Below are positions 3,817-56,098 of a stretch of DNA of 64,000 nucleotides, in pieces. Within the stretch, counting starts at the first letter, position 1, and each line of letters begins with the position of its first letter. Source of the DNA: Escherichia phage MN01. The stretch is taken from the sequence record MT129652.1; one strand, written 5' to 3'. The position numbers were made by a program, and so were the translations under genes. The notes under the pieces were generated by a model that worked only from the letters and a program-made list of their open reading frames with translations, did no database searches and was not told the DNA's origin.

Positions 3817-4049
3817 GTATTGCAATTTATATTAAATCCGAGTCATGTGATTCTTATCTGTATTCCTATGACACTGGAACACCAGAAGAGAAAATCAAAG
3901 ATGATTTAGAAACTGATTTAGATATGTTCCGCCCGATTTCTGAATACAGAATTCAAACTTCTGATAGTGAATCTCCTTCATTGGAAAACAGACTTGAATT
4001 TTTAATGAGTGATATTTTTAACCAATCATGGAAACGTGACGATGAGTAA
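3813..4049 (+). CDS. Hypothetical acidic protein
   Basis: 78 aa; ATGA start/stop overlap with upstream gene. Confidence 0.45.
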   Translation: MSIAIYIKSESCDSYLYSYDTGTPEEKIKDDLETDLDMFRPISEYRIQTSDSESPSLENRLEFLMSDIFNQSWKRDDE

Positions 4050-4500
4050 GAAAAACAAGGTGAAAGAATTATCTGCTGGCATTATTTTCATGACTGAAGA
4101 TAAAGAGTTATTCATGGGTCGTGTGACTGGTTCTCGTAAACCAGGTATGCCTGCACACAAATGGGACATCCCTAAAGGTCATGTTGAAGCTGGTGAATCC
4201 CCGATTGAAGCGGCTATCCGTGAAACCGAAGAAGAAACCGGGTTTACTCAATACGACCCGGCATTCTTAAAGGACCTGGGCGAATTCCGTTATTCAGATA
4301 ACAAAAATCTTCACCTGTTTTTGTACACGGTTCCGGTCGAGCATGAGCAGTTCAGACATAGTAAATGCTCTGCCTATCATACCTTCCCGGATGGTAGTTC
4401 GATTCCAGAGTTCGATGCATTTGCTCTGATTAAACCAAGTCAATGGCAGTATGTGATGGGCAAATCGATGTACAAGGTACTGACTCAAATTTTCGGATAA
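4042..4500 (+). CDS. nudE: Nudix hydrolase NudE (e.1)
   Basis: Nudix box GHVEAGESPIEAAIRETEEETGF; position immediately upstream of lysozyme as in T4. Confidence 0.8.
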   Translation: MSKKNKVKELSAGIIFMTEDKELFMGRVTGSRKPGMPAHKWDIPKGHVEAGESPIEAAIRETEEETGFTQYDPAFLKDLGEFRYSDNKNLHLFLYTVPVEHEQFRHSKCSAYHTFPDGSSIPEFDAFALIKPSQWQYVMGKSMYKVLTQIFG

Positions 4501-4526
4501 TAAATACCCCTATATAAGGGGGTATT
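4497..4526 (+). promoter_or_regulatory. Late-promoter-like TAATAAATA plus hairpin sequestering the lysozyme SD
   Basis: AATACCCC (4503-4510) pairs with GGGGTATT (4519-4526); SD AGGGGG sits in the 3-prime arm; ATG at 4527. Confidence 0.5.
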
Positions 4527-5018
4527 ATGAATATATTCGAAATGTTACGCATAGATGAAGGTTGTAAGTTGGATTTGTATAAAGATACTGAAGGCTATTG
4601 GACCATTGGTATCGGGCAACTGATAACTAAGAACCCATCAAAAGATGTTGCTCGTGCCGAGCTCGACAAACTCATGGGTCGCGTCTGTAATGGTCGCATA
4701 ACCCAGCACGAAGCTGAAACATTGTTTAACCGTTCGGTCGAAAAAGCTAAAGCCGGAATCTTGAGACACCCTGTCTTAAAACCTGTTTATGATGTGCTAG
4801 ATGAAGTTCGTCGTTGTGCACTCATTAATATGGTATTCCAGATGGGTGTTGCTGGTGTTGCTGGTTTTCCTAAGGGTATGCGACTTCTGAAGTCTAAATC
4901 ATGGGAAGCAGCTGCTAAGGAACTGGCGGACTCAAGATGGTATAAAGTCCAGACTCCGAACCGAGCCAAACGAGTTATAGAAACGTTCCGTACTGGAACT
5001 TTTAGCGCATACAAATAA
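4527..5018 (+). CDS. e: Endolysin (T4 lysozyme e, muramidase)
   Basis: N-terminus [12 protein letters not shown]...[13 protein letters not shown] and [12 protein letters not shown]...PNRAKRVI closely match T4 lysozyme. Confidence 0.95.
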
Positions 5019-5026
5019 GGTAAAAT

Positions 5027-5329
5027 ATGAAAACGTATAAAGAATTTATCACCGAAGCGCGCGTAAGTGCAGGTAAATTAGAAGCCGCTGTAAATAAAAA
5101 GGCCCATTCATTTCATGATTTACCAGATAAAGACCGTAAGAAACTTGTAAGCCTTTATATTGACAAAGAGCGTATTCTAGCTCTCCCTGGCGCTAACGAA
5201 GGTAAACAGGCCAAGCCTTTGAATTCTGTCGAAAAGAAAATTGATAACTTTGCTTCTAAGTTCGGCATGTCTATGGATGACCTTCAGCAAGCGGCTATCG
5301 AAGCAGCTAAAGCAATTAAAGGTAAATAA
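5027..5329 (+). CDS. Internal head protein (IPIII/IPII-like) with capsid-targeting sequence
   Basis: Starts [11 protein letters not shown], matching the T4 internal-protein CTS MKTYQEFIAE with an I-x-E protease site; 100 aa; adjacent to e as in T4. Confidence 0.7.
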
Positions 5330-5331
5330 CA

Positions 5332-5384
5332 GTTTACTTCCACGATACGTGTGATATAATGTTCTCCTACAAACATAGGAGAAC
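5332..5384 (+). promoter_or_regulatory. Sigma70-type early promoter followed by SD-sequestering hairpin upstream of denV
   Basis: GTTTAC (5332-5337), 17-bp spacer, TATAAT (5355-5360); then GTTCTCCT/AGGAGAAC inverted repeat (5361-5384) containing the SD. Confidence 0.5.
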
Positions 5385-5388
5385 AAAC

Positions 5389-5805
5389 ATGACTCGCATT
5401 AATTTGACCCTGGTATCTGAACTTGCTGACCAACATCTTATGGCCGAATATCGTGAACTTCCTCGCGTGTTTGGCGCTGTTCGTAAGCATGTGCAAAATG
5501 GTAAAAAGGTTTCTGACTTTAAAATCCCATCATCTTTTCTTTTAGGGACTGGTCATGTCACCTTCTTTTATGATAAGCTTTTGTTCCTTAAAAACCGACA
5601 TCAAGAACTTATTGCGGAATGTTTAAAGCGAGGGTTTAACATAAAAGATATTTCTACCCAAGACTTAACTGATATTCCTGATGAATGGAAGAATGATTAT
5701 CAACCATCAATCTGGTCAATTGAAATCAGTCAAGCTAGGCTGAATGAGAAAATTTCTCAAAAGCCCGCTTGGTACAAATACTATGGGAAAGCTGTGTACG
5801 CTTAA
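5389..5805 (+). CDS. denV: Endonuclease V (pyrimidine-dimer DNA glycosylase)
   Basis: [35 protein letters not shown]... near-identical to T4 endonuclease V; 138 aa. Confidence 0.92.
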
Positions 5806-6841: not shown

Positions 6842-7137
6842 TGACTGATGAAGAACTTTTTGACAAAATCTACTTTATTCCAAAGGTTAGGTCTGAAGAT
6901 TTCGTAAAGAACTATGAAATCTTTAATAAAGCTAATTTCTTTGAGTATGTGTTTTTGTCTGGGCCTTTTATTGGGTCCAGATTTCGTTGCACTGCTCCGA
7001 GTATTCGCTTGATGAAGTTGGTTCCTTACTTTACTCTGGAATTTATTTCTGGACCGTGTAAGGGTATTATCACTCGTAGCCTCCTGACCTATGACCAGGA
7101 TGTGCGATTAATTAGTGACTGGAAAAAATATGTCTAA
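6838..7137 (+). CDS. Hypothetical protein
   Basis: 99 aa ORF; ATGA overlap with upstream stop. Confidence 0.45.
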   Translation: MMTDEELFDKIYFIPKVRSEDFVKNYEIFNKANFFEYVFLSGPFIGSRFRCTAPSIRLMKLVPYFTLEFISGPCKGIITRSLLTYDQDVRLISDWKKYV

Positions 7138-7344
7138 ATTGACTATTGAAGGTTCTGAAGAAGCTCTGAAGATGTTTGTTGACTGGTTCCACGAACAGGG
7201 CGAACAAGGCTTTATGGAATGTTGGGACGGCGGCCAATGGAATGGTAAAGAAATTGTTTACCCAACTACGTATATCTCCGTGCAAGGTTTGACTGAAGGC
7301 CTTCGTTTGGTAGAATACGATATCGCAACTGGCGAGGAAGTGAA

Positions 7345-7348
<4 letters not shown>
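7130..7348 (+). CDS. Hypothetical acidic protein
   Basis: Internal ATG at 7130 after GGAAAAAAT; 72 aa. Confidence 0.45.
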
Positions 7349-7928
<580 letters not shown>

Positions 7929-7984
7929 TGTACAAGCAGATTGAAATGAGTTATGATTATCCCATCAAACAAAAGGAGATAATC

Positions 7985-8443
7985 ATGACTACTATCGATT
8001 CAAGTGTTTACATTCGCCGCAATAAACTTCGTCGCATTTTTGAAACGGAGTTCCTCAAAATTAATAATGCTATCAACAAGGCTTGTAAAGAAGCAGGCCT
8101 TGAAGCATTCTTCATTAAGTACAGTCCGCACCTGTTGGACCGTGCAATCCAACGTGAAATTGATGAACAATATGTTTTTGACTTGTTTGGAAAAATCACA
8201 CCACATGTAAAAGAAATCGTTGAATTCCTGGAGATGAAACCACTCCCGGAAGTTGAAGCACAAATTGACCCGAATGTGAACTACCGTCCACTTCGTCTGG
8301 AAATCACAGACAAGAACCTGTGGTTAGGAATGACAGTTAACCCGGCTCTTCCTGGGAAGTCTCCAACCATGTGTTGTCGTATGGCGTTTGTTAACTCTAA
8401 TCGTCTGGAAGGAAAAATTAGCACAAAAGTAATTTATATCTAA
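7985..8443 (+). CDS. regB: Probable RegB-like sequence-specific endoribonuclease
   Basis: MTTIDSSVYIRRNKLRRIFETEF... resembles the remembered T4 RegB N-terminus; 152 aa vs 153 aa in T4; lies between denV and tk as in T4; AAAAGGAG SD. Confidence 0.5.
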   Translation: MTTIDSSVYIRRNKLRRIFETEFLKINNAINKACKEAGLEAFFIKYSPHLLDRAIQREIDEQYVFDLFGKITPHVKEIVEFLEMKPLPEVEAQIDPNVNYRPLRLEITDKNLWLGMTVNPALPGKSPTMCCRMAFVNSNRLEGKISTKVIYI

Positions 8444-8453
8444 TGGGGAATTC

Positions 8454-8996
8454 ATGAAAAAAGTAATCGCCACCTTACTATTGACAGTTAGTATGTCTGC
8501 CCATAGCGTAGAGCCTACTTTCAGTAATGAACAAATGGGAAACCTCCAATATGCTTATGCGTTTGGAGAACAGTTCCAGAAAAATGGTAAGTACAAAGAA
8601 AATCCGCACCAACATAATGGTTTGGGATATATCATGGCTGGTTTAGCCTGGCAGGAAAGTTCTGCCGGGATTAATACTGGATTAAATAAAGATAAGCACC
8701 ATGCATATGGTATATTCCAAAATTATCTTCCAACCATTCGCGAACGCGTGAAACAGGTTGGGTGGACAATGACAGATAAAGAAATAATCAAGATGATAAG
8801 CAAGAGAGAGAACAGCGCACGTTGGGCTTACATTGAGCTTTCATACTGGTTGAATATTCATAAGGGGGATATAAGAAAAACACTATCATCATATAACGCA
8901 GGGTGGAATGTGAAAGCTGGTAATACGTATGCTTCGCAGGTCCTAGAAAAAGCTAACTACTTAAAATCACGAGGCCTATTAAAAACGGTGGATTAA
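8454..8996 (+). CDS. Secreted lytic-transglycosylase-like protein
   Basis: N-terminal signal peptide MKKVIATLLLTVSMSAHS; motifs GLAWQESS, YGIFQ, SYNAGWN resemble family-1 lytic transglycosylase E-S / GLMQ / AYNxG. Confidence 0.55.
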   Translation: MKKVIATLLLTVSMSAHSVEPTFSNEQMGNLQYAYAFGEQFQKNGKYKENPHQHNGLGYIMAGLAWQESSAGINTGLNKDKHHAYGIFQNYLPTIRERVKQVGWTMTDKEIIKMISKRENSARWAYIELSYWLNIHKGDIRKTLSSYNAGWNVKAGNTYASQVLEKANYLKSRGLLKTVD

Positions 8997-8998
8997 AA

Positions 8999-9358
8999 AT
9001 GGTAAGAGTTATCACTTTAGCCATAGGGTTAGTATTCAGCATGGGAGGAATAGCTTCAGTACAGAGCGACGACAACAACAGCATCATAGAATATGCAACG
9101 AGGACGGCTAAAGATTATTGCGCAGCAAGCAATGTGGATTGTGTAATCCAGTTCAGCGCCAAGCTCACCGCAGCCTATAAAGACGGCCAAAATGATGTTG
9201 AACACACGCTTTTGAAAAAGAATGTATTGTCCAACAAATATGAAAAGAAATTATTTGAAATGGATTGCATTCTGTCAAGTGCAAAATATAAGGCGGCCTG
9301 CACCAGTATGGTGGACAGGTTAGTGGATTCATATAATAGAGGATTGAACTCTAAATGA
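8999..9358 (+). CDS. Secreted hypothetical protein
   Basis: 119 aa; signal-peptide-like N-terminus MVRVITLAIGLVFSMGGIASVQS; several Cys. Confidence 0.5.
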   Translation: MVRVITLAIGLVFSMGGIASVQSDDNNSIIEYATRTAKDYCAASNVDCVIQFSAKLTAAYKDGQNDVEHTLLKKNVLSNKYEKKLFEMDCILSSAKYKAACTSMVDRLVDSYNRGLNSK

Positions 9359-9828
9359 TTACCCAGTATATTAAGGGCGATATCGTCGCCCTCTTTCTTC
9401 AAGGCAATATTATTGCACATGGTTGCAACTGCTTCCACACAATGGGTTCTGGCGTAGCTGGACAGTTGGCGAAGGCTTATCCAAAAGTTTTAGAAATAGA
9501 TAAAACCACTACTGAATACGGTTCCAGAGAAAAACTCGGTGATATGTCTATTGTTTTTAAACATAAACCTATTGGGTTTGGTATGTGCTATAATTTGTAC
9601 ACCCAATATGAACCGGGCCCTAATCTTGATTATGGTGCTTTAGTAAATTGTATGATAGAATTAAATCTACAGGCAGAAACCCTTTTGTTTAAACCTGTAA
9701 TTTATATTCCTCGTATTGGTTGTGGTATTGCCGGTGGGGATTGGGAAAAGGTCTCTGTATTAATTGACATGTTTACTCCTGACATTGATTTAATAGTGGT
9801 GGATTATGAGCCAAGCTCGAATTCTTAA
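9355..9828 (+). CDS. Macro-domain (ADP-ribose binding/processing) protein
   Basis: Motifs AHGCNCFHTMGSGVAGQLAKAYP and IPRIGCGIAGGDW match the OARD1/TARG1-type macro-domain signature. Confidence 0.65.
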   Translation: MITQYIKGDIVALFLQGNIIAHGCNCFHTMGSGVAGQLAKAYPKVLEIDKTTTEYGSREKLGDMSIVFKHKPIGFGMCYNLYTQYEPGPNLDYGALVNCMIELNLQAETLLFKPVIYIPRIGCGIAGGDWEKVSVLIDMFTPDIDLIVVDYEPSSNS

Positions 9829-10012
9829 AACGGCCAAATGTGAAAAATGCGAATGGCCAGTAATCGCAGCTTTATGCAACGATGAAATGAATTGCGAATA
9901 TGATTACTGGTGGTACTGTTCTAATAAAGGATGTTCTAATCATAAGGGTGAAGGTTTTCATTCTGGTTATTGCGAACATCCTAAATTTGTGCGATATGGT
10001 GAACCGAAATGA
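9806..10012 (+). CDS. Hypothetical Cys-rich small protein
   Basis: 68 aa; CEKCEW...C...CEYDYWWYCSNKGCSNHKGEGFHSGYCEH suggests metal binding. Confidence 0.4.
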   Translation: MSQARILKTAKCEKCEWPVIAALCNDEMNCEYDYWWYCSNKGCSNHKGEGFHSGYCEHPKFVRYGEPK

Positions 10013-10194
10013 GTTTAAGTATTAGTCAGAAAAGTAGATTATTTGAGCTTATTCATGAGCTTTTGGATGAGCATGCAGAAGCAAACGCTTTTTACGATGA
10101 ATATGGCCCGATAGATGCCGAACATCAGGAAGAATTTGCTAATCGATTTGATGAGAAAGAAAACGAATTAATAGCTTATGTGAATACACTTTAA
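10009..10194 (+). CDS. Hypothetical acidic small protein
   Basis: 61 aa; ATGA overlap with upstream gene. Confidence 0.4.
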   Translation: MSLSISQKSRLFELIHELLDEHAEANAFYDEYGPIDAEHQEEFANRFDEKENELIAYVNTL

Positions 10195-10203
10195 GAAGGT
10201 GAT

Positions 10204-10776
10204 ATGGCGAGTTTAATTTATCATTACGCAGCAATGAATGCAGGCAAAACAGCTTCATTGCTGACTGCAGCTTATTCCTATAAAGAGCGTGGAATGAGTG
10301 TGCTTTTGCTAAAACCTGTTATTGATAATCGGGACTCGGAATCTGAAATTAAATCACGCATCGGTATTAGCCAGGAAGCAAACCTGGTAACGGCCGACAT
10401 GAACCTGTTTGAATTCTATAAATGGGCCGAGTCTCAAAAGGATATCCATTGTGTCCTGGTCGATGAAGCTCAATTTTTGTTACCAGAGCAAATTGACCAG
10501 TTAGCTCAAGTGGTTGATAATTACAATATCCCCGTTATGTGTTACGGGCTAAGAACAGATTTTCGGGGCCAATTATTTCCCGGTTCGGCCAGACTTCTGG
10601 CTATTTCAGATAAACTGGTTGAATTAAAAGGCGTCTGTCATTGCGGCCGGAAAGCAACCATGACCGCTCGAGTAATCGACGGTGCTGCTGTAAAGGACGG
10701 CGAGCAAGTATTGGTCGGTGGGAATGAATCGTACGTATCTTTATGCAGAAAACATTGGCTCGAATTAACAAGCTGA
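10204..10776 (+). CDS. tk: Thymidine kinase
   Basis: MASLIYHYAAMNAGKTASLL...KERGMSVLLLKP with P-loop and C-terminal CxxC...CRKH zinc site; 190 aa; matches T4 Tk. Confidence 0.92.
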   Translation: MASLIYHYAAMNAGKTASLLTAAYSYKERGMSVLLLKPVIDNRDSESEIKSRIGISQEANLVTADMNLFEFYKWAESQKDIHCVLVDEAQFLLPEQIDQLAQVVDNYNIPVMCYGLRTDFRGQLFPGSARLLAISDKLVELKGVCHCGRKATMTARVIDGAAVKDGEQVLVGGNESYVSLCRKHWLELTS

Positions 10777-10783
10777 GGTTCGC

Positions 10784-11059
10784 ATGGTATACAAGGTTTG
10801 GACGTATATCTCTATTTTGATATTTCTGGTTCTGGTTTTTGTTCCTATGCAACAGGACCAGGAAAGGTATGAGCGCGAAGTCGAAATCGTGGCAAGTACC
10901 TATCACTCGTTCAATAAAGAGTGTCCTAATAAAAATGGAATAAGCCTGCAACAAGCATACTATTTGTCAACGGTCACCAGTCCAAAACAACGGGTCTGGG
11001 TCGAACGTAATTTTGCAAGTTTATTTTCAGAGTACTGCTTTAATTTTAAACGTTTATAA
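10784..11059 (+). CDS. Hypothetical membrane protein
   Basis: 91 aa; N-terminal hydrophobic helix ISILIFLVLVFVP; late-promoter-like TATAAATA at 11055-11062 at its 3-prime end. Confidence 0.45.
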   Translation: MVYKVWTYISILIFLVLVFVPMQQDQERYEREVEIVASTYHSFNKECPNKNGISLQQAYYLSTVTSPKQRVWVERNFASLFSEYCFNFKRL

Positions 11060-11131
11060 ATACAGTTGCTAACTAGTATTCCGCTATGTTAAGGCTGCAA
11101 AGCGTAATCATGACCAACAATAGGAGTCCTT

Positions 11132-11425
11132 ATGGACCTTATTCGAGGACTTTCATTAAGTCTAATAATCCTGGGCTGTTTAGGTCCAAATCTGTCCTCT
11201 GCAGCAGAGGGGAAGTTTACCCAATATGCAGATAGTGCGATGAAGATTTATTCGCAATTCAAAGAACCAAGCGTACATCAATCCGAACAGTTCTGGGCAT
11301 TTATCAAGACTGAATGGAACAACAAAAGCCAATGCGAAACCGAAATCACCTGCAAAAGCGATGGTAAAGCTGCGGCGAGAGAGTATGCTAAATTAATGAA
11401 GGTAAAATTGGAAGATGAAATTTGA
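11132..11425 (+). CDS. Secreted hypothetical protein
   Basis: 97 aa; signal-peptide-like LSLSLIILGCLGPNLSSAAEG. Confidence 0.5.
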   Translation: MDLIRGLSLSLIILGCLGPNLSSAAEGKFTQYADSAMKIYSQFKEPSVHQSEQFWAFIKTEWNNKSQCETEITCKSDGKAAAREYAKLMKVKLEDEI

Positions 11426-11798
11426 TGATTTCGTAACGGGTCGTGGGTCTGAGGTGGATTCATACATTGGGTGGTTGTTAGTCTCTTTGGCTTATTTTAA
11501 GTCTGCCCATCTTGAAACCAAAAGTTACGCCCGCCATAAAGCTTATGATTTCTACTTCACAGAAATCCAAGGTCCACTCGACCAGTTCAGTGAGCAATGG
11601 TTAGGTTACAGCGGGAAACAATACAAAGCTGCATTACCGTCCGCCTCGGACTTGCCGAAAGATACAATTTTGTTTTTAGATGAAATGATTAAAAGCTCGG
11701 AAAGAGTCTATAAAGTTGTACCCAAGGCTATTCAATCGACTCTGGACGATATCGTTGGAGTTTTCTTTCAGACTAAGTATCTGTTAACACTAGAGTAA
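11415..11798 (+). CDS. Hypothetical protein
   Basis: 127 aa; followed by an intrinsic terminator. Confidence 0.5.
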   Translation: MKFDDFVTGRGSEVDSYIGWLLVSLAYFKSAHLETKSYARHKAYDFYFTEIQGPLDQFSEQWLGYSGKQYKAALPSASDLPKDTILFLDEMIKSSERVYKVVPKAIQSTLDDIVGVFFQTKYLLTLE

Positions 11799-49705: not shown

Positions 49706-50266
49706 ATGAACATCATCAAATCTGATACCGAACCCAACCAGTTAAAATTTAGTGAAATGGAGATAGCTTCATTATTTGAATGCCGCACATCAAAGGTTGA
49801 TAAGACCTTGCATTCAAATGTCAACTCAATCATCAAGTCAAGGTTGTCTATACCCGATACAGTCTTGTGGCGCGGAGTAACCCAGCAAGAGATTGATTTG
49901 TTAGATGAAGCAAAAGAATCAATGCAACCTTTTGAATTTGGACGGGTAACCTCCTTTACAGAAGACTATGGTATTGCCAGGGATTTTGCTGCAATGGAAT
50001 ATGTGACTAGGACTATCGTCAGATTGAATCAGACCAAAGCTTTTTGTTACCATGATGCGATGCGCAAAATCGCGCTTGACGTTCCACTGGAATTCTTCAA
50101 TACAGCTTCTGGTTCCGCCCGGGCAGCTACATTAAGGCGCGAAGAATACATGGACATGATTGATTCTGAGCTTGAATGGTTTGTTCCAGTTGACCAGAAA
50201 TTCGTGGTAGTTGACGCTGGATTTGTTGGTGATTATTATGTTCTTGACTGTGTACAAGAGCAATAA
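49706..50266 (+). CDS. ADP-ribosyltransferase, ModA/ModB-like (first copy)
   Basis: R-S-ExE triad candidates LWRGVT, TSFT, ELEWFVP; 186 aa; tandem with a paralog. Confidence 0.6.
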   Translation: MNIIKSDTEPNQLKFSEMEIASLFECRTSKVDKTLHSNVNSIIKSRLSIPDTVLWRGVTQQEIDLLDEAKESMQPFEFGRVTSFTEDYGIARDFAAMEYVTRTIVRLNQTKAFCYHDAMRKIALDVPLEFFNTASGSARAATLRREEYMDMIDSELEWFVPVDQKFVVVDAGFVGDYYVLDCVQEQ

Positions 50267-50310
50267 GACACGTTAAGATGTTCCTATCAACTACTGATGA
50301 GGATAATAAA

Positions 50311-50925
50311 ATGCTGTACACTGATGACGTTTTGAATGGAATTATTGACACTGCCGCTTCTAGCGAGTCTTTTCGTGACCAATGTCAAGCTGAGATTGAT
50401 GCTCTTTATACAGATAATGAGCAATCAGTACTCTGGCAGTGTATGGAAAATAAACCCGACCTGATTCAAGAAGACTTGTCCAGGATTATCCGCAACAATC
50501 TGAATACTGCACCGCCGGCAGCATTGTTCCGTGGTATATCAAAGAAAACCATGGAATACCTGGAAGATTTAAGATATGTTGGTGCAATAATTGAGTTCAA
50601 CCGTGTGATGAGTTTTTCCAGAGACTGGCAGGTTGCAAGAAATTTTGCATCATACAGTTTCTATGGCACAAGGAACATTTTCTGTATAAACAATGCACCA
50701 TATGCGTATAACTATCAGGAAGCAATCTTCAAAATGATTTGCGGTGCTCCTCCCGAAGAGTTCAATGGTGCATATCCAGAAGCAACCAGGAAGTCAAACC
50801 TACACCTGGTTAATGATGAGGATGAGTTTATGTTTCCCGCTGGGACTACGCTTCGCGTAGACTTGATTGAAACTCACCCATTGAATAACCTTTATACTGT
50901 TTGGCATTTGACTGTTTTGAACTAA
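50311..50925 (+). CDS. ADP-ribosyltransferase, ModA/ModB-like (second copy)
   Basis: LFRGIS, MSFS, DEDEFMFP motifs; 205 aa; family-B leader upstream. Confidence 0.6.
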   Translation: MLYTDDVLNGIIDTAASSESFRDQCQAEIDALYTDNEQSVLWQCMENKPDLIQEDLSRIIRNNLNTAPPAALFRGISKKTMEYLEDLRYVGAIIEFNRVMSFSRDWQVARNFASYSFYGTRNIFCINNAPYAYNYQEAIFKMICGAPPEEFNGAYPEATRKSNLHLVNDEDEFMFPAGTTLRVDLIETHPLNNLYTVWHLTVLN

Positions 50926-54445: not shown

Positions 54446-54703
54446 ATGATTACTTCTTTTGAAATTGGCCAACAATATGAAATGTCTGCTCTTCAAGCTG
54501 CTGAAGCAGGTCTGACTAAAGCGTTTGAATGTGCATTTACAAATATTCGTGGTAAAATCTTTACTGTCAATAAAATTGCGGTATATGATAAAGAAACAGA
54601 CATGAACAAAGGCATCTACTTGAACGTGTCAAACGCAAAAGGTCGTCGTGAAATTATGGTTGTACAACCTAACCAACTGGCGATGTTCAATAAGGTTGCA
54701 TAA
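54446..54703 (+). CDS. Hypothetical protein
   Basis: Internal ATG right after the family-B leader; 85 aa. Confidence 0.45.
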   Translation: MITSFEIGQQYEMSALQAAEAGLTKAFECAFTNIRGKIFTVNKIAVYDKETDMNKGIYLNVSNAKGRREIMVVQPNQLAMFNKVA

Positions 54704-55458
54704 TGAAACCAGAATTTATTGACTTTGATGTTGTAAGCATGTATGTTCGCCCAATTAAACCATTAAAACTTGAGAAACAAAATATGACTATTGAAATTAA
54801 CAAAACTTATCAACTGATTGAACCTATTATTCAAAACGCAGCTATGGTTTCTGGGTATAATACTCTGACTGATGCTTTAGGCGAAGGTGAATTTATTGTT
54901 GAAACTTTTGTAAAAAGTAACTGGTTTGATAAAGCATATATTCTACATGCACGTCGCCTTGATACAAATGAAGTAGAAAAAATTACGGTTTATGAAGCTG
55001 AGATTGAACTCTTCAAAGAAGTTGAAGAAACTCCTATCAAAGTTGGTAAAACCTATCAGCTTATTGAAGATGCTAGTCAGTTTGGAAAGACCGTTGCAAT
55101 GCATGCTGGTTGGCGCGTACTGAAAGGTATTTTTGGATTTGCTCCATTTACCGTTAAAACAGTTAAGTACCACAATCACCAAAGCATCTTTGAATTTACT
55201 GCGGTCAATGAATCAGGTGACAATCTTGAAGCTATCCTTTATCCGCGTGAATCTGTACTGCTGGAAGAAGTTAGCGAACTGGGTGACCCTATTGACTTGC
55301 TGTGTAAACCAGTTCAAATCAAACGCCCATTTAACAGTTCCATTTGTGGTTGGGTAACAGACCAGTGGATTGAAGAGGGTGTTGAACTCCTGAACGTTGT
55401 TCATGCTGGTGAATTTACTGTTGTACCACGTTCCATGGTTGTTGAAATTTTTAATTAA
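54703..55458 (+). CDS. Hypothetical protein with internal repeat; paralog of 55538..56098
   Basis: 251 aa; repeated NKTYQLIEPIIQNAAMVSG / GKTYQLIEDASQFGKTVAMHAG; C-terminal GWVTDQWIEEGVELLNVV...FTVVPRS shared with the next gene. Confidence 0.55.
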   Translation: MKPEFIDFDVVSMYVRPIKPLKLEKQNMTIEINKTYQLIEPIIQNAAMVSGYNTLTDALGEGEFIVETFVKSNWFDKAYILHARRLDTNEVEKITVYEAEIELFKEVEETPIKVGKTYQLIEDASQFGKTVAMHAGWRVLKGIFGFAPFTVKTVKYHNHQSIFEFTAVNESGDNLEAILYPRESVLLEEVSELGDPIDLLCKPVQIKRPFNSSICGWVTDQWIEEGVELLNVVHAGEFTVVPRSMVVEIFN

Positions 55459-55537: not shown

Positions 55538-56098
55538 ATGAAAGTTGAAGCTGGCGAAATCGTTCGCGTATCCAAAAAATCTCGTTCAAGAGCTGCTGGA
55601 CGTTTTGTTGAGGTTGTCAGTATTCGTGCTGATATTTTTGTTGACCATCCTGATAATGAAGTAAAGGTGCGTATCATTCCCAAAAATGGTCAGACTGAAA
55701 CTCAATTCGCTTATGTACGTGCTAAATTCCTGGAATCAACTGCTATCACTGCCACCAACCTCCCTGTGGTTGAAGAAGTTGAATCCCATGATGGATATGT
55801 GTGCGAAAGCAATGATATTCGTGGCGTAATTGCTCAAGACGTTGAAACCATTGACCAGTCTCATGTTGGGGTTGATTTTAAATGGAAATTGGGCAAAGGT
55901 GTCTTTTTTGTTTCACCTAAACCGTTTGAATATGTTGACGAACCTTTTGGTACTTATGAAACCACTAGCATGTCTGGTTACATCACAGACCAGTGGGTTG
56001 AAGAAGGCGTTAAGCTCTATAACATCGTGTTCCTTGGAACCTTTAAGGTGGTTCCTGAAAGCTTTATCGTTGAGTATGCTGATATTCATCGTGCCTAA
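55538..56098 (+). CDS. Hypothetical protein; paralog of 54703..55458
   Basis: 186 aa; C-terminal GYITDQWVEEGVKLYNIVFLGTFKVVPES. Confidence 0.55.
   Translation: MKVEAGEIVRVSKKSRSRAAGRFVEVVSIRADIFVDHPDNEVKVRIIPKNGQTETQFAYVRAKFLESTAITATNLPVVEEVESHDGYVCESNDIRGVIAQDVETIDQSHVGVDFKWKLGKGVFFVSPKPFEYVDEPFGTYETTSMSGYITDQWVEEGVKLYNIVFLGTFKVVPESFIVEYADIHRA

What the first reader, a model, noticed from the sequence alone, without database searches (positions are those of the whole stretch)
8454..9828. Cluster of two signal-peptide proteins (one lytic-transglycosylase-like) and a macro-domain protein upstream of tk
The macro-domain signature (HGCNC...MGSGVAG and IPRIGCGIAGGDW) marks an ADP-ribose binding or hydrolysing enzyme. 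The phage also encodes ADP-ribosyltransferases (modA/modB-like) and a Nudix hydrolase. A phage macro domain could reverse host ADP-ribosylation-based defence, or tune the phage's own ADP-ribosylation of host proteins. The adjacent secreted muramidase-like protein suggests an envelope-directed accessory function.
Basis: partly seen in the sequence, partly recalled or inferred. Interest (0 to 1): 0.65.

Follow-up and report, generated by a model that had tools for sequence, protein, structure and literature searches.

The report
T4-type anti-DarT macrodomain gene with neighbours
These are three ordinary, already catalogued accessory genes of a T4-like phage (vs.1, vs and tk.4); the macro-domain gene is the counterpart of T4 tk.4/AdfM, recently shown to protect T4 from the DarTG2 defence that ADP-ribosylates DNA.

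Summary
Three co-directional ORFs lie at 8454-8996, 8999-9358 and 9355-9828, between regB and tk. They are the syntenic orthologues of T4 vs.1, vs and tk.4 (65%, 45% and 56% identity).

My own addition is that the T4-type protein is not a true DarG. It scores 30.6 bits against a cut-off of 250, has no DarT-binding domain, and carries an invariant Gln84 where DarG, TARG1 and PhiKZ AdfM have the catalytic Lys. SCO6735, a proven thymidine-ADP-ribose DNA hydrolase, has the same Gln.

Vs.1 is an exported lytic-transglycosylase-fold protein with an invariant Glu68. The second "signal-peptide protein" is Vs, the classical valyl-tRNA synthetase modifier. Its conserved export signal and four cysteines do not fit a cytoplasmic role, and this remains unexplained.

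The three genes differ in phyletic distribution, so they are neighbours and not a module.

The parts
8454..8996 (+). vs.1 orthologue: Sec-exported protein with a family-1 lytic transglycosylase / goose-type-lysozyme fold. Signal peptide is about residues 1-18 (MKKVIATLLLTVSMSAHS). Putative catalytic Glu68 lies in WQESS; the GxFQ (86-89) and SYNAG (146-150) motifs are present.
8999..9358 (+). vs orthologue ('valyl-tRNA synthetase modifier'). The N-terminus resembles a signal peptide (about residues 1-19/20). Four conserved cysteines (C41, C48, C90, C101). Invariant C-terminal SMVDRLVDSYNRGL.
   Evidence: 45% identity to T4 Vs and syntenic. PHROG 1256 at 1.4e-32. Homologues carry PF26829. Alignment and conservation. 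Hydropathy, cysteine counts and a mature mass of about 11.1 kDa.
9355..9828 (+). tk.4/AdfM orthologue: a stand-alone macro domain of the ALC1-like class (TARG1/DarG/SCO6735). Conserved Asn25, Gln84 at the position of the catalytic Lys, and a GCGIAGGDW diphosphate loop (122-130).
9374..9392 (+). Stable 8-bp RNA hairpin (AGGGCGAUAUCGUCGCCCU) 20 nt inside the macro ORF. Role unknown.
   Evidence: Terminator-like hit. Free energy -12.6 kcal/mol, z -4.5. Conserved in T4, a Dhakavirus and a Krischvirus, and annotated there as 'terminator'. Absent in four more distant lineages.
7928..8443 (+). regB (endoribonuclease), the upstream flank that fixes the synteny. The true start is probably the ATG at 7985.
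   Evidence: Pfam REGB_T4 at 5.7e-72, with the match starting at residue 23 of the listed ORF. T4 gene order.
9806..10776 (+). Downstream flank: tk.3-like zinc-binding ORF (9806-10012), tk.2-like DUF7438 ORF (10009-10194) and thymidine kinase (10204-10776). There is no tk.1.
   Evidence: Pfam Phage_zn_bind 1.4e-29, DUF7438 7.4e-16 and TK 5.7e-58. T4 gene order.

Best explanation
The window comes from a Gaprivervirus-like T4 relative. The region holds three adjacent but functionally separate early accessory genes, orthologous to T4 vs.1, vs and tk.4.

(1) The 157-aa macro-domain protein is the orthologue of T4 Tk.4/AdfM. When a host DarT2 toxin ADP-ribosylates thymidines in single-stranded phage DNA and blocks replication, this enzyme most likely binds the ADP-ribose and hydrolyses the thymine-ribose bond, restoring the DNA. 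It acts as an 'orphan antitoxin'. Its chemistry is probably that of SCO6735 and not that of DarG: there is no catalytic lysine, and an invariant Gln84 positions the distal ribose for water-mediated cleavage.

(2) Vs.1 is exported to the periplasm, where its single catalytic Glu68 would cleave peptidoglycan glycan strands in the lytic transglycosylase manner. Its biological purpose is unknown.

(3) Vs is the classical modifier of host valyl-tRNA synthetase, important for T4 in minimal medium.

What is shown: orthology, folds and conserved residues (here), and the DarTG2 phenotype of T4 tk.4 and the M9 phenotype of T4 vs (literature). What is inferred: enzymatic removal of ADP-ribose by the T4-type protein, transfer of the phenotype to this 56%-identical allele, and export and activity of Vs.1.
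For: Identity of the phage: 97.5% DNA identity to vB_EcoM_RZ and Yersinia P8, and 96.6% to SP18, a Gaprivervirus.

Orthology: the gene order regB-vs.1-vs-tk.4-tk.3-tk.2-tk is the same as in T4, with full-length identities of 65%, 45% and 56%.

Macro fold and class.

T4 genetics:
- tk.4 was the single significant hit on a DarTG2 host, a clean deletion is sensitised, and the gene was named adfM.
- Raw numbers: 288.0 to 45.3 reads, log2FC -2.64, adjusted p = 0, with modA, modB and nudE unchanged (alt is unchanged only in the LB-vs-M9 sheet that I read).

Gln-type chemistry:
- Q84 is invariant in 64 homologues.
- It aligns with TARG1 K84 in a profile alignment and in MAFFT, and with PhiKZ AdfM K78 in hhalign.
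- SCO6735 has Gln85 at this position, Q85A/E mutants are dead, and SCO6735 removes DarT-made thymidine-ADP-ribose efficiently.
- The GCG[IL]AGGxW loop is shared with SCO6735 and BT1257.

A phage macrodomain removing T-ADP-ribose from DNA has been demonstrated biochemically for PhiKZ AdfM.

Vs.1. Vs; M9 phenotype.
Against: - No biochemical assay exists for any T4-type Tk.4 protein; the T4 evidence is genetic only.
- The window allele is only 56% identical to T4's and differs in the diphosphate loop (GCGIAGGDW here, GAGIGKGNW in T4).
- SCO6735's Lys34 and its extended Lys-bearing mobile loop, which help DNA binding, appear not to be conserved. The loop is shorter than in BT1257 (by 3-6 residues depending on the alignment).
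- SCO6735 also inhibits DarT without catalysis, so protection could be partly non-enzymatic.
- The window protein falls below Pfam's SLT cut-off for Vs.1, and a sequence profile found no solved SLT structure.
- Vs carries an export signal that does not fit a cytoplasmic target.
Confidence: 0.75

Rival explanations
1. The macro domain is a small-molecule 'phosphatase/deacetylase' that clears ADP-ribose-1''-phosphate or O-acetyl-ADP-ribose, as many database annotations say (Poa1p-like). On this view it is a metabolic clean-up enzyme and not a counter-defence enzyme.
Against: These labels are transferred by homology only. The sequence match to Poa1p with the single protein covers residues 4-62 only. 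The sole phenotype found for T4 tk.4 across the conditions tested is DarTG2 sensitivity. No pathway in T4 infection is known to me that generates Appr-1''-p (own knowledge).
Confidence: 0.08
2. The macro domain reverses or tunes the phage's own ADP-ribosylation of host proteins by Alt, ModA and ModB.
For: ModA/ModB-like genes are in the same window, so writers and a putative eraser coexist in one genome.
Against: Alt, ModA and ModB are arginine-specific. To my knowledge, arginine-ADP-ribose is removed by ARH/DraG-type hydrolases and not by ALC1-like macrodomains. T4 tk.4 insertions are neutral without DarTG2 (log2FC -0.07 to -0.19). Homologues occur in 2753 phage records across many lineages, which I did not check for ARTs.
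Confidence: 0.04
3. Protection is mainly non-catalytic. The protein binds and blocks DarT2, or shields ADP-ribosylated DNA, and the Lys-to-Gln change reflects loss of hydrolase activity.
For: Catalytically dead SCO6735 Q85A, DarG K80A and TARG1 K84A still inhibit DarT in vitro. The DarG-type catalytic Lys is absent.
Against: Gln at this site is compatible with high activity in SCO6735, and is required there. All ADP-ribose-contacting motifs are invariant across 64 homologues, which argues for retained catalysis. The protein lacks the C-terminal DarT-binding domain of DarG.
Confidence: 0.1
4. The three genes form one functional module in which the exported proteins and the macro domain cooperate. 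The reader called this an 'envelope-directed accessory function' linked to ADP-ribose biology.
For: The genes are tightly packed and co-oriented, with a stop/start overlap. The order is conserved in Tevenvirinae.
Against: Distributions differ: macro in 2753 phage records, Vs.1 in 2067 and Vs in 797. Compartments differ: one protein is cytoplasmic and two carry export signals. T4 phenotypes differ: tk.4 responds only to DarTG2 and vs to minimal medium, and tk.4 is unaffected in M9.
Confidence: 0.03

Closest known systems
T4 Tk.4 = AdfM (anti-DarT factor macrodomain), bioRxiv 10.1101/2025.11.20.689424
   Same: It is the syntenic orthologue, about the same length (155 vs 157 aa), 56% identical with no gaps. 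All family-invariant residues are shared, including N25 and Q84, and so is the 5' hairpin.
   Different: It is a diverged allele, and the diphosphate loop reads GCGIAGGDW here but GAGIGKGNW in T4. The window-type allele (over 90% identity) is also found in some Tequatrovirus genomes such as teqdroes, so alleles move between genera. The anti-DarTG2 phenotype has not been tested for this allele.
Streptomyces coelicolor SCO6735 and Bacteroides BT1257 (Gln-type ALC1-like macrodomains; PDB 5E3B, 2FG1/2AFC)
   Different: Identity is only about 30%. The phage family has a mobile loop shorter than BT1257's (by 3-6 residues depending on the alignment) and lacks the Lys-rich insertion. The residue aligned with BT1257 Lys33 is Ser/Ala. 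These are cellular proteins under DNA-damage control, not phage proteins.
DarG antitoxin of DarTG2 (M. tuberculosis, T. aquaticus, T. africanus; PDB 5M3I, 5M3E, 7OMU)
   Different: It scores 30.6 bits against the NCBIfam DarG cut-off of 250. It has no C-terminal DarT-binding domain and no adjacent darT, and the catalytic Lys80 is replaced by Gln.
PhiKZ gp104 = chimallivirus AdfM (Cell Rep 2026, PMC13309987)
   Same: It is a stand-alone phage macrodomain that counters DarTG2, and removal of T-ADP-ribose from DNA has been shown biochemically.
   Different: It is only a remote relative: BLASTP gives fragments at E 0.001, and hhalign gives 96% probability at 24% identity. It is a true DarG-like protein (PADLOC DarG 132.9 bits vs 30.9 here) and keeps the catalytic Lys78. 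It is imported into the phage nucleus. The same name is therefore used for two separately derived lineages.
Family-1 lytic transglycosylases (Slt70, MltF, MltC, MltE, EtgA) and g-type lysozyme, as the reference for Vs.1
   Different: It is a minimal 160-residue domain with 12-18% identity to any solved enzyme. It falls below the Pfam SLT cut-off and is undetectable by a sequence profile against PDB. It is not a virion or lysis protein as far as is known, and its function in infection is unknown.

Membership tests
Macro domain (Pfam PF01661) | Profile score above the curated gathering cut-off | tested here: met
   32.4 bits against a cut-off of 22, covering residues 22-134.
Macro domain (Pfam PF01661) | Three-layer alpha/beta/alpha macro fold | tested here: met
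Macro domain (Pfam PF01661) | ADP-ribose binding or hydrolysis | not testable with these tools
   Only the binding motifs can be seen: invariant N25, G31/G33 and G122-G128.
ALC1-like class (TARG1 / DarG / SCO6735 / Poa1p) | Closest structural neighbours belong to this class, with a gap to other macro classes | tested here: met
DarG antitoxin (NCBIfam NF048014 equivalog; PADLOC PDLC02990) | Full-length match above the curated cut-off | tested here: not met
   30.6 bits against a cut-off of 250. PADLOC DarG 30.9 bits, against 132.9 for PhiKZ gp104.
DarG antitoxin (NCBIfam NF048014 equivalog; PADLOC PDLC02990) | C-terminal DarT-binding domain | tested here: not met
   The protein is 157 aa and matches only positions 3-150 of the 338-position model.
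DarG antitoxin (NCBIfam NF048014 equivalog; PADLOC PDLC02990) | Catalytic lysine (Taq/Mtb K80, TARG1 K84) | tested here: not met
   Invariant Gln84 occupies that column.
DarG antitoxin (NCBIfam NF048014 equivalog; PADLOC PDLC02990) | Encoded next to a darT toxin gene | tested here: not met
   The neighbours are vs and a tk.3-like zinc-binding ORF.
SCO6735/BT1257 Gln-type thymidine-ADP-ribose hydrolases | Gln at the catalytic-Lys position (SCO6735 Q85, essential) | tested here: met
   Q84 aligns with the BT1257 Gln in both a profile alignment and MAFFT. The equivalence of SCO6735 Q85 to K84/K80 is taken from PMC9411070.
SCO6735/BT1257 Gln-type thymidine-ADP-ribose hydrolases | PRIGCGLAGGxW substrate-binding loop | tested here: met
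   IPRIGCGIAGGDW here, against LPRIGCGLAGGTW in SCO6735 and MPRIGCGLAGGKW in BT1257.
SCO6735/BT1257 Gln-type thymidine-ADP-ribose hydrolases | Extended, Lys-bearing mobile loop (about 5 residues longer than in DarG/TARG1) | tested here: not met
   The phage family has gaps relative to BT1257 in this loop (6 residues in the profile alignment, 3+3 in MAFFT), so its length resembles TARG1.
SCO6735/BT1257 Gln-type thymidine-ADP-ribose hydrolases | Lys34 contacting DNA or the distal ribose | tested here: inconclusive
   The residue aligned with BT1257 Lys33 (GWGKGF) is Ser32 here and Ala in the family consensus. I could not align SCO6735 itself over this segment.
T4 Tk.4 / AdfM | Orthology: full-length similarity and conserved gene neighbourhood | tested here: met
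   56% identity over 153 residues with no gaps. Gene order regB-vs.1-vs-tk.4-tk.3-tk.2-tk.
T4 Tk.4 / AdfM | Confers resistance to DarTG2 | not testable with these tools
   Shown only for T4.
SLT / family-1 lytic transglycosylase (Pfam PF01464), for Vs.1 | Profile score above the gathering cut-off | tested here: not met
   The window protein scores 16.3 bits against 21.3. However, 29 of 30 family members match at E of 0.01 or better, best 1.3e-7.
SLT / family-1 lytic transglycosylase (Pfam PF01464), for Vs.1 | Lysozyme-like SLT fold | tested here: met
SLT / family-1 lytic transglycosylase (Pfam PF01464), for Vs.1 | Catalytic Glu in an E-S motif, plus GxxQ and AYNxG motifs | tested here: met
   E68-S69-S70, G86-x-F-Q89 and S146-Y-N-A-G150 are invariant or nearly so in 38 sequences.
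Vs, valyl-tRNA synthetase modifier (PHROG 1256 / PF26829) | Sequence membership and synteny with T4 vs | tested here: met
   PHROG 1256 at 1.4e-32. 45% identity to T4 Vs. All 28 homologue clusters carry PF26829.
Vs, valyl-tRNA synthetase modifier (PHROG 1256 / PF26829) | Binds and modifies host ValRS in the cytoplasm | not testable with these tools
   The sequence features (export signal, four conserved Cys) point to the periplasm. This is unresolved.

The most novel reading that the evidence does not exclude
Vs, annotated for decades as the cytoplasmic modifier of valyl-tRNA synthetase, may really be a Sec-exported, disulfide-bonded periplasmic protein that works with the adjacent lytic transglycosylase Vs.1, for example as its regulator or partner. 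On this reading the minimal-medium fitness defect of T4 vs mutants is an envelope phenotype, and the ValRS association is secondary or arises after lysis.

A smaller novelty on the macro side is that T4-type AdfM would be a separately derived, Gln-type DNA de-ADP-ribosylase and not a captured DarG.
Probability: 0.15. Interest if true: 0.6.

Novelty: new member of a known kind. Interest (0 to 1): 0.3.

Why it matters
The practical value is correct annotation. Most records call this gene 'hypothetical protein' or 'phosphatase', but it should be read as a probable anti-DarTG2 factor. That bears on predicting host range for T4-like therapeutic phages on strains carrying DarTG2.

The residue-level result shows that 'AdfM' currently names two lineages with different active sites: Gln-type in T4-like phages and Lys-type in PhiKZ-like phages. 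Biochemistry done on PhiKZ AdfM or DarG therefore cannot simply be transferred. It also gives clear mutants to test, Q84A and N25A.

The mismatch between Vs's export signal and its textbook cytoplasmic role is a small, cheaply testable puzzle in a classic model phage.

Tried and rejected
- **PDB sequence searches for the two exported proteins.** Single-sequence and profile searches for Vs.1 found no SLT structure. Only the fold comparison worked. The search for Vs gave only a chance hit.
- **Direct alignment to SCO6735 and DarG.** Querying PDB with a truncated protein recovered only the C-terminal loop for SCO6735. It also gave an ungapped, probably wrong, loop alignment to BT1257. I relied on the profile and MAFFT alignments instead.
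- **Promoter and terminator scan of 7000-11500.** No more sites were found than in shuffled sequence: 11 promoters against 12.0 expected, and 4 terminators against 3.2. No operon boundaries are claimed.
- **Literature searches.** Two were wasted on over-broad terms. The T4 genome review (PMC150520) is not held, so the history of the vs gene assignment could not be checked.
- **The idea of a three-gene functional module.** Considered and rejected on distribution and phenotype grounds.
Full report
**What is there**

Window 8454-9828 holds three closely packed ORFs on the + strand: 8454-8996 (180 aa), 8999-9358 (119 aa) and 9355-9828 (157 aa). Upstream lies regB (Pfam REGB_T4, 5.7e-72). Downstream lie a phage zinc-binding ORF, a DUF7438 ORF and thymidine kinase.

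The region is 97.5% identical to Escherichia phage vB_EcoM_RZ and Yersinia phage P8, and 96.6% to Shigella phage SP18, which is a Gaprivervirus of the Tevenvirinae. In T4 the same order reads regB, vs.1, vs, tk.4, tk.3, tk.2, tk.1, tk. The three window proteins match T4 Vs.1, Vs and Tk.4 over their full lengths at 65%, 45% and 56% identity. The 'cluster' is therefore the well-known vs.1-vs-tk.4 stretch of T-even genomes. The window only lacks tk.1.

**The macro-domain protein**

- Pfam Macro scores 32.4 bits against a cut-off of 22.
- A 64-sequence alignment gave an AlphaFold2 model with pLDDT 95.2 and pTM 0.90.
- A profile search of PDB sequences gives the same picture: BT1257 4.7e-19, TARG1 1.3e-16, SCO6735 1.3e-15, DarG 1.6e-11.

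**What is known about its function**

A November 2025 preprint (HIDEN-SEQ, 10.1101/2025.11.20.689424) screened a saturated T4 transposon library on a host expressing DarTG2. It found tk.4 as the only significant hit, and a clean deletion became sensitive. The authors named the gene adfM, for anti-DarT factor macrodomain, and proposed enzymatic removal of ADP-ribose from DNA.

In their table, tk.4 falls from 288.0 to 45.3 reads (log2FC -2.64, adjusted p = 0), while modA, modB and nudE do not move. tk.4 is non-essential on plain K-12.

Independently, a distinct macrodomain of PhiKZ-like phages, also named AdfM, was shown biochemically to remove DarT2-made thymidine-ADP-ribose from DNA.

**What I can add: it is not a captured DarG**

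- Against NCBIfam's DarG equivalog model the window protein scores 30.6 bits, with a cut-off of 250, and matches only the macrodomain half.
- PADLOC's DarG model gives 30.9 bits for the window protein and 36 for T4 Tk.4, but 132.9 for PhiKZ gp104.
- The window protein and PhiKZ AdfM are only remote relatives.
- In 64 homologues down to 39% identity, Gln84 is invariant.
- Gln84 aligns with the catalytic Lys84 of TARG1 in an HMM alignment and in MAFFT, and with Lys78 of PhiKZ AdfM in hhalign.
- TARG1's second catalytic residue, Asp125, aligns with Ala126.

The same Lys-to-Gln replacement defines SCO6735 and BT1257. SCO6735 Gln85 is essential, and the enzyme removes DarT-made thymidine-ADP-ribose even more efficiently than DarG. 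A water-mediated mechanism has been proposed in which the Gln positions the distal ribose.

The window protein also shares the PRIGCG(L/I)AGGxW loop of SCO6735 and BT1257. It lacks their longer Lys-bearing mobile loop.

I conclude that T4-type AdfM most likely works like SCO6735, as a Gln-type thymidine-ADP-ribose DNA hydrolase. It is a lineage separate from both DarG and PhiKZ AdfM. This is inference from residues; no T4-type protein has been assayed.

**Rival explanations for the macro domain**

- The 'phosphatase' and 'O-acetyl-ADP-ribose deacetylase' labels in databases are homology transfers.
- Erasing the phage's own Alt/ModA/ModB marks is unlikely. Those marks are arginine-linked, and to my knowledge ARH-type enzymes handle that linkage, not this macro class.
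- A partly non-catalytic block of DarT cannot be excluded, because dead SCO6735 still inhibits DarT.

**Vs.1**

The first ORF has a classic export signal (MKKVIATLLLTVSMSAHS). The family's N-terminal hydrophobic core has median hydropathy 2.49 and no acidic residues in 37 of 38 members, against 0.95 for the macro control.

Glu68 in WQESS is invariant, as are the GxFQ and SYNAG motifs. 'Secreted lytic-transglycosylase-like' is therefore supported. What the protein does during infection is unknown.

**Vs, and an unresolved point**

The second ORF is the orthologue of Vs, the T4 factor that binds host valyl-tRNA synthetase. T4 vs is the most strongly depleted gene in minimal medium (log2FC -2.19, adjusted p = 0).

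Yet every one of 23 family members has a signal-peptide-like N-terminus. Twenty of them have exactly four cysteines in the mature part, at conserved positions. The C-terminus SMVDRLVDSYNRGL is almost invariant.

After cleavage the protein would be about 11.1 kDa. That is close to the roughly 10 kDa I recall for the purified factor; this figure is from my own knowledge and was not checked here. An exported, disulfide-bonded protein binding a cytoplasmic enzyme is hard to reconcile.

In the T4 data, vs.1 and vs insertions are both 10- to 30-fold rarer than their neighbours. vs.1 also drops in M9 (log2FC -0.87, p = 0.0055, adjusted p = 0.155). That fits either a shared function or polarity of vs.1 insertions on vs. 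I leave this unexplained.

**Are the three genes a unit?**

Homologues of the macro protein occur in 2753 phage records, of Vs.1 in 2067 and of Vs in 797. The T4 phenotypes are separate. I treat them as neighbours in a variable early region and not as a module.

**Verdict**

The macro gene is a new member (a 56% allele) of a recently characterised anti-DarTG2 family. Interest is modest, apart from the active-site distinction and the Vs puzzle.

Noticed in passing
window 8999-9358 (also T4, L001:5387-5734 minus strand): Vs, annotated as the modifier of cytoplasmic valyl-tRNA synthetase, has a conserved Sec-type signal peptide, four conserved cysteines and an invariant C-terminal motif SMVDRLVDSYNRGL. 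The predicted mature size is 11.1 kDa. The predicted location conflicts with the textbook function.
   Followed up: partly
T4 vs.1 and vs (HIDEN-SEQ Extended Data Table 6, sheets S7/S8); equivalent to window 8454-9358: Transposon insertions in both vs.1 and vs are 10-30 times rarer than in neighbouring genes (LB: 22.6 and 26.6 against 289.6 for tk.4; M9Glc: 9.4 and 9.9 against 288). vs.1 also trends down in M9 (log2FC -0.87, adjusted p 0.155). This could reflect a shared function or polarity of vs.1 insertions on vs.
   Followed up: partly
window 9374-9392 (+), 20 nt inside the macro ORF: A stable 8-bp GC-rich hairpin (-12.6 kcal/mol, z -4.5) followed by a U-rich stretch. It is conserved in T4, a Dhakavirus and a Krischvirus, where one record annotates it as a terminator and a one-sided G-to-A change keeps the pair. 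It is absent in Karamvirus, Jiaodavirus, Acinetobacter and Aeromonas relatives.
   Followed up: partly
window 9355-9828 versus the phage collection: Identity of phage homologues to this protein is bimodal: 290 records at 90-95% and 2344 below 60%. The window-type allele (92%) occurs in Tequatrovirus teqdroes and teqhad, while T4 itself, of the same genus, carries a 56% allele. This suggests the counter-defence gene is exchanged between genera.
   Followed up: partly
literature; L002:12518-13006 (PhiKZ gp104) versus window 9355-9828: The name AdfM has been given independently to two only remotely related phage macrodomains: T4 Tk.4 (Gln-type, weak DarG match) and PhiKZ gp104 (Lys-type, strong DarG match).
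   Followed up: yes
window 10194-10204: The tk.2-like ORF ends 9 nt before tk starts, so the T4 gene tk.1 has no counterpart here.
   Followed up: no
window 7928-8443: The mechanical regB ORF starts at a GTG at 7928, but the RegB profile match begins at residue 23. The real start is probably the ATG at 7985 (MTTIDSS...).
   Followed up: no
window 54703-55458 and 55538-56098: There are two adjacent ORFs with MotB (modifier of transcription) similarity. The first matches only through its C-terminal 37 residues.
   Followed up: no
window 4009-5805 and 49706-50925: Context genes confirmed: Nudix hydrolase (4009-4500), phage lysozyme (4527-5018), pyrimidine-dimer glycosylase (5359-5805), and two ModA/ModB-like ADP-ribosyltransferases (49706-50266, 50278-50925).
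   Followed up: yes
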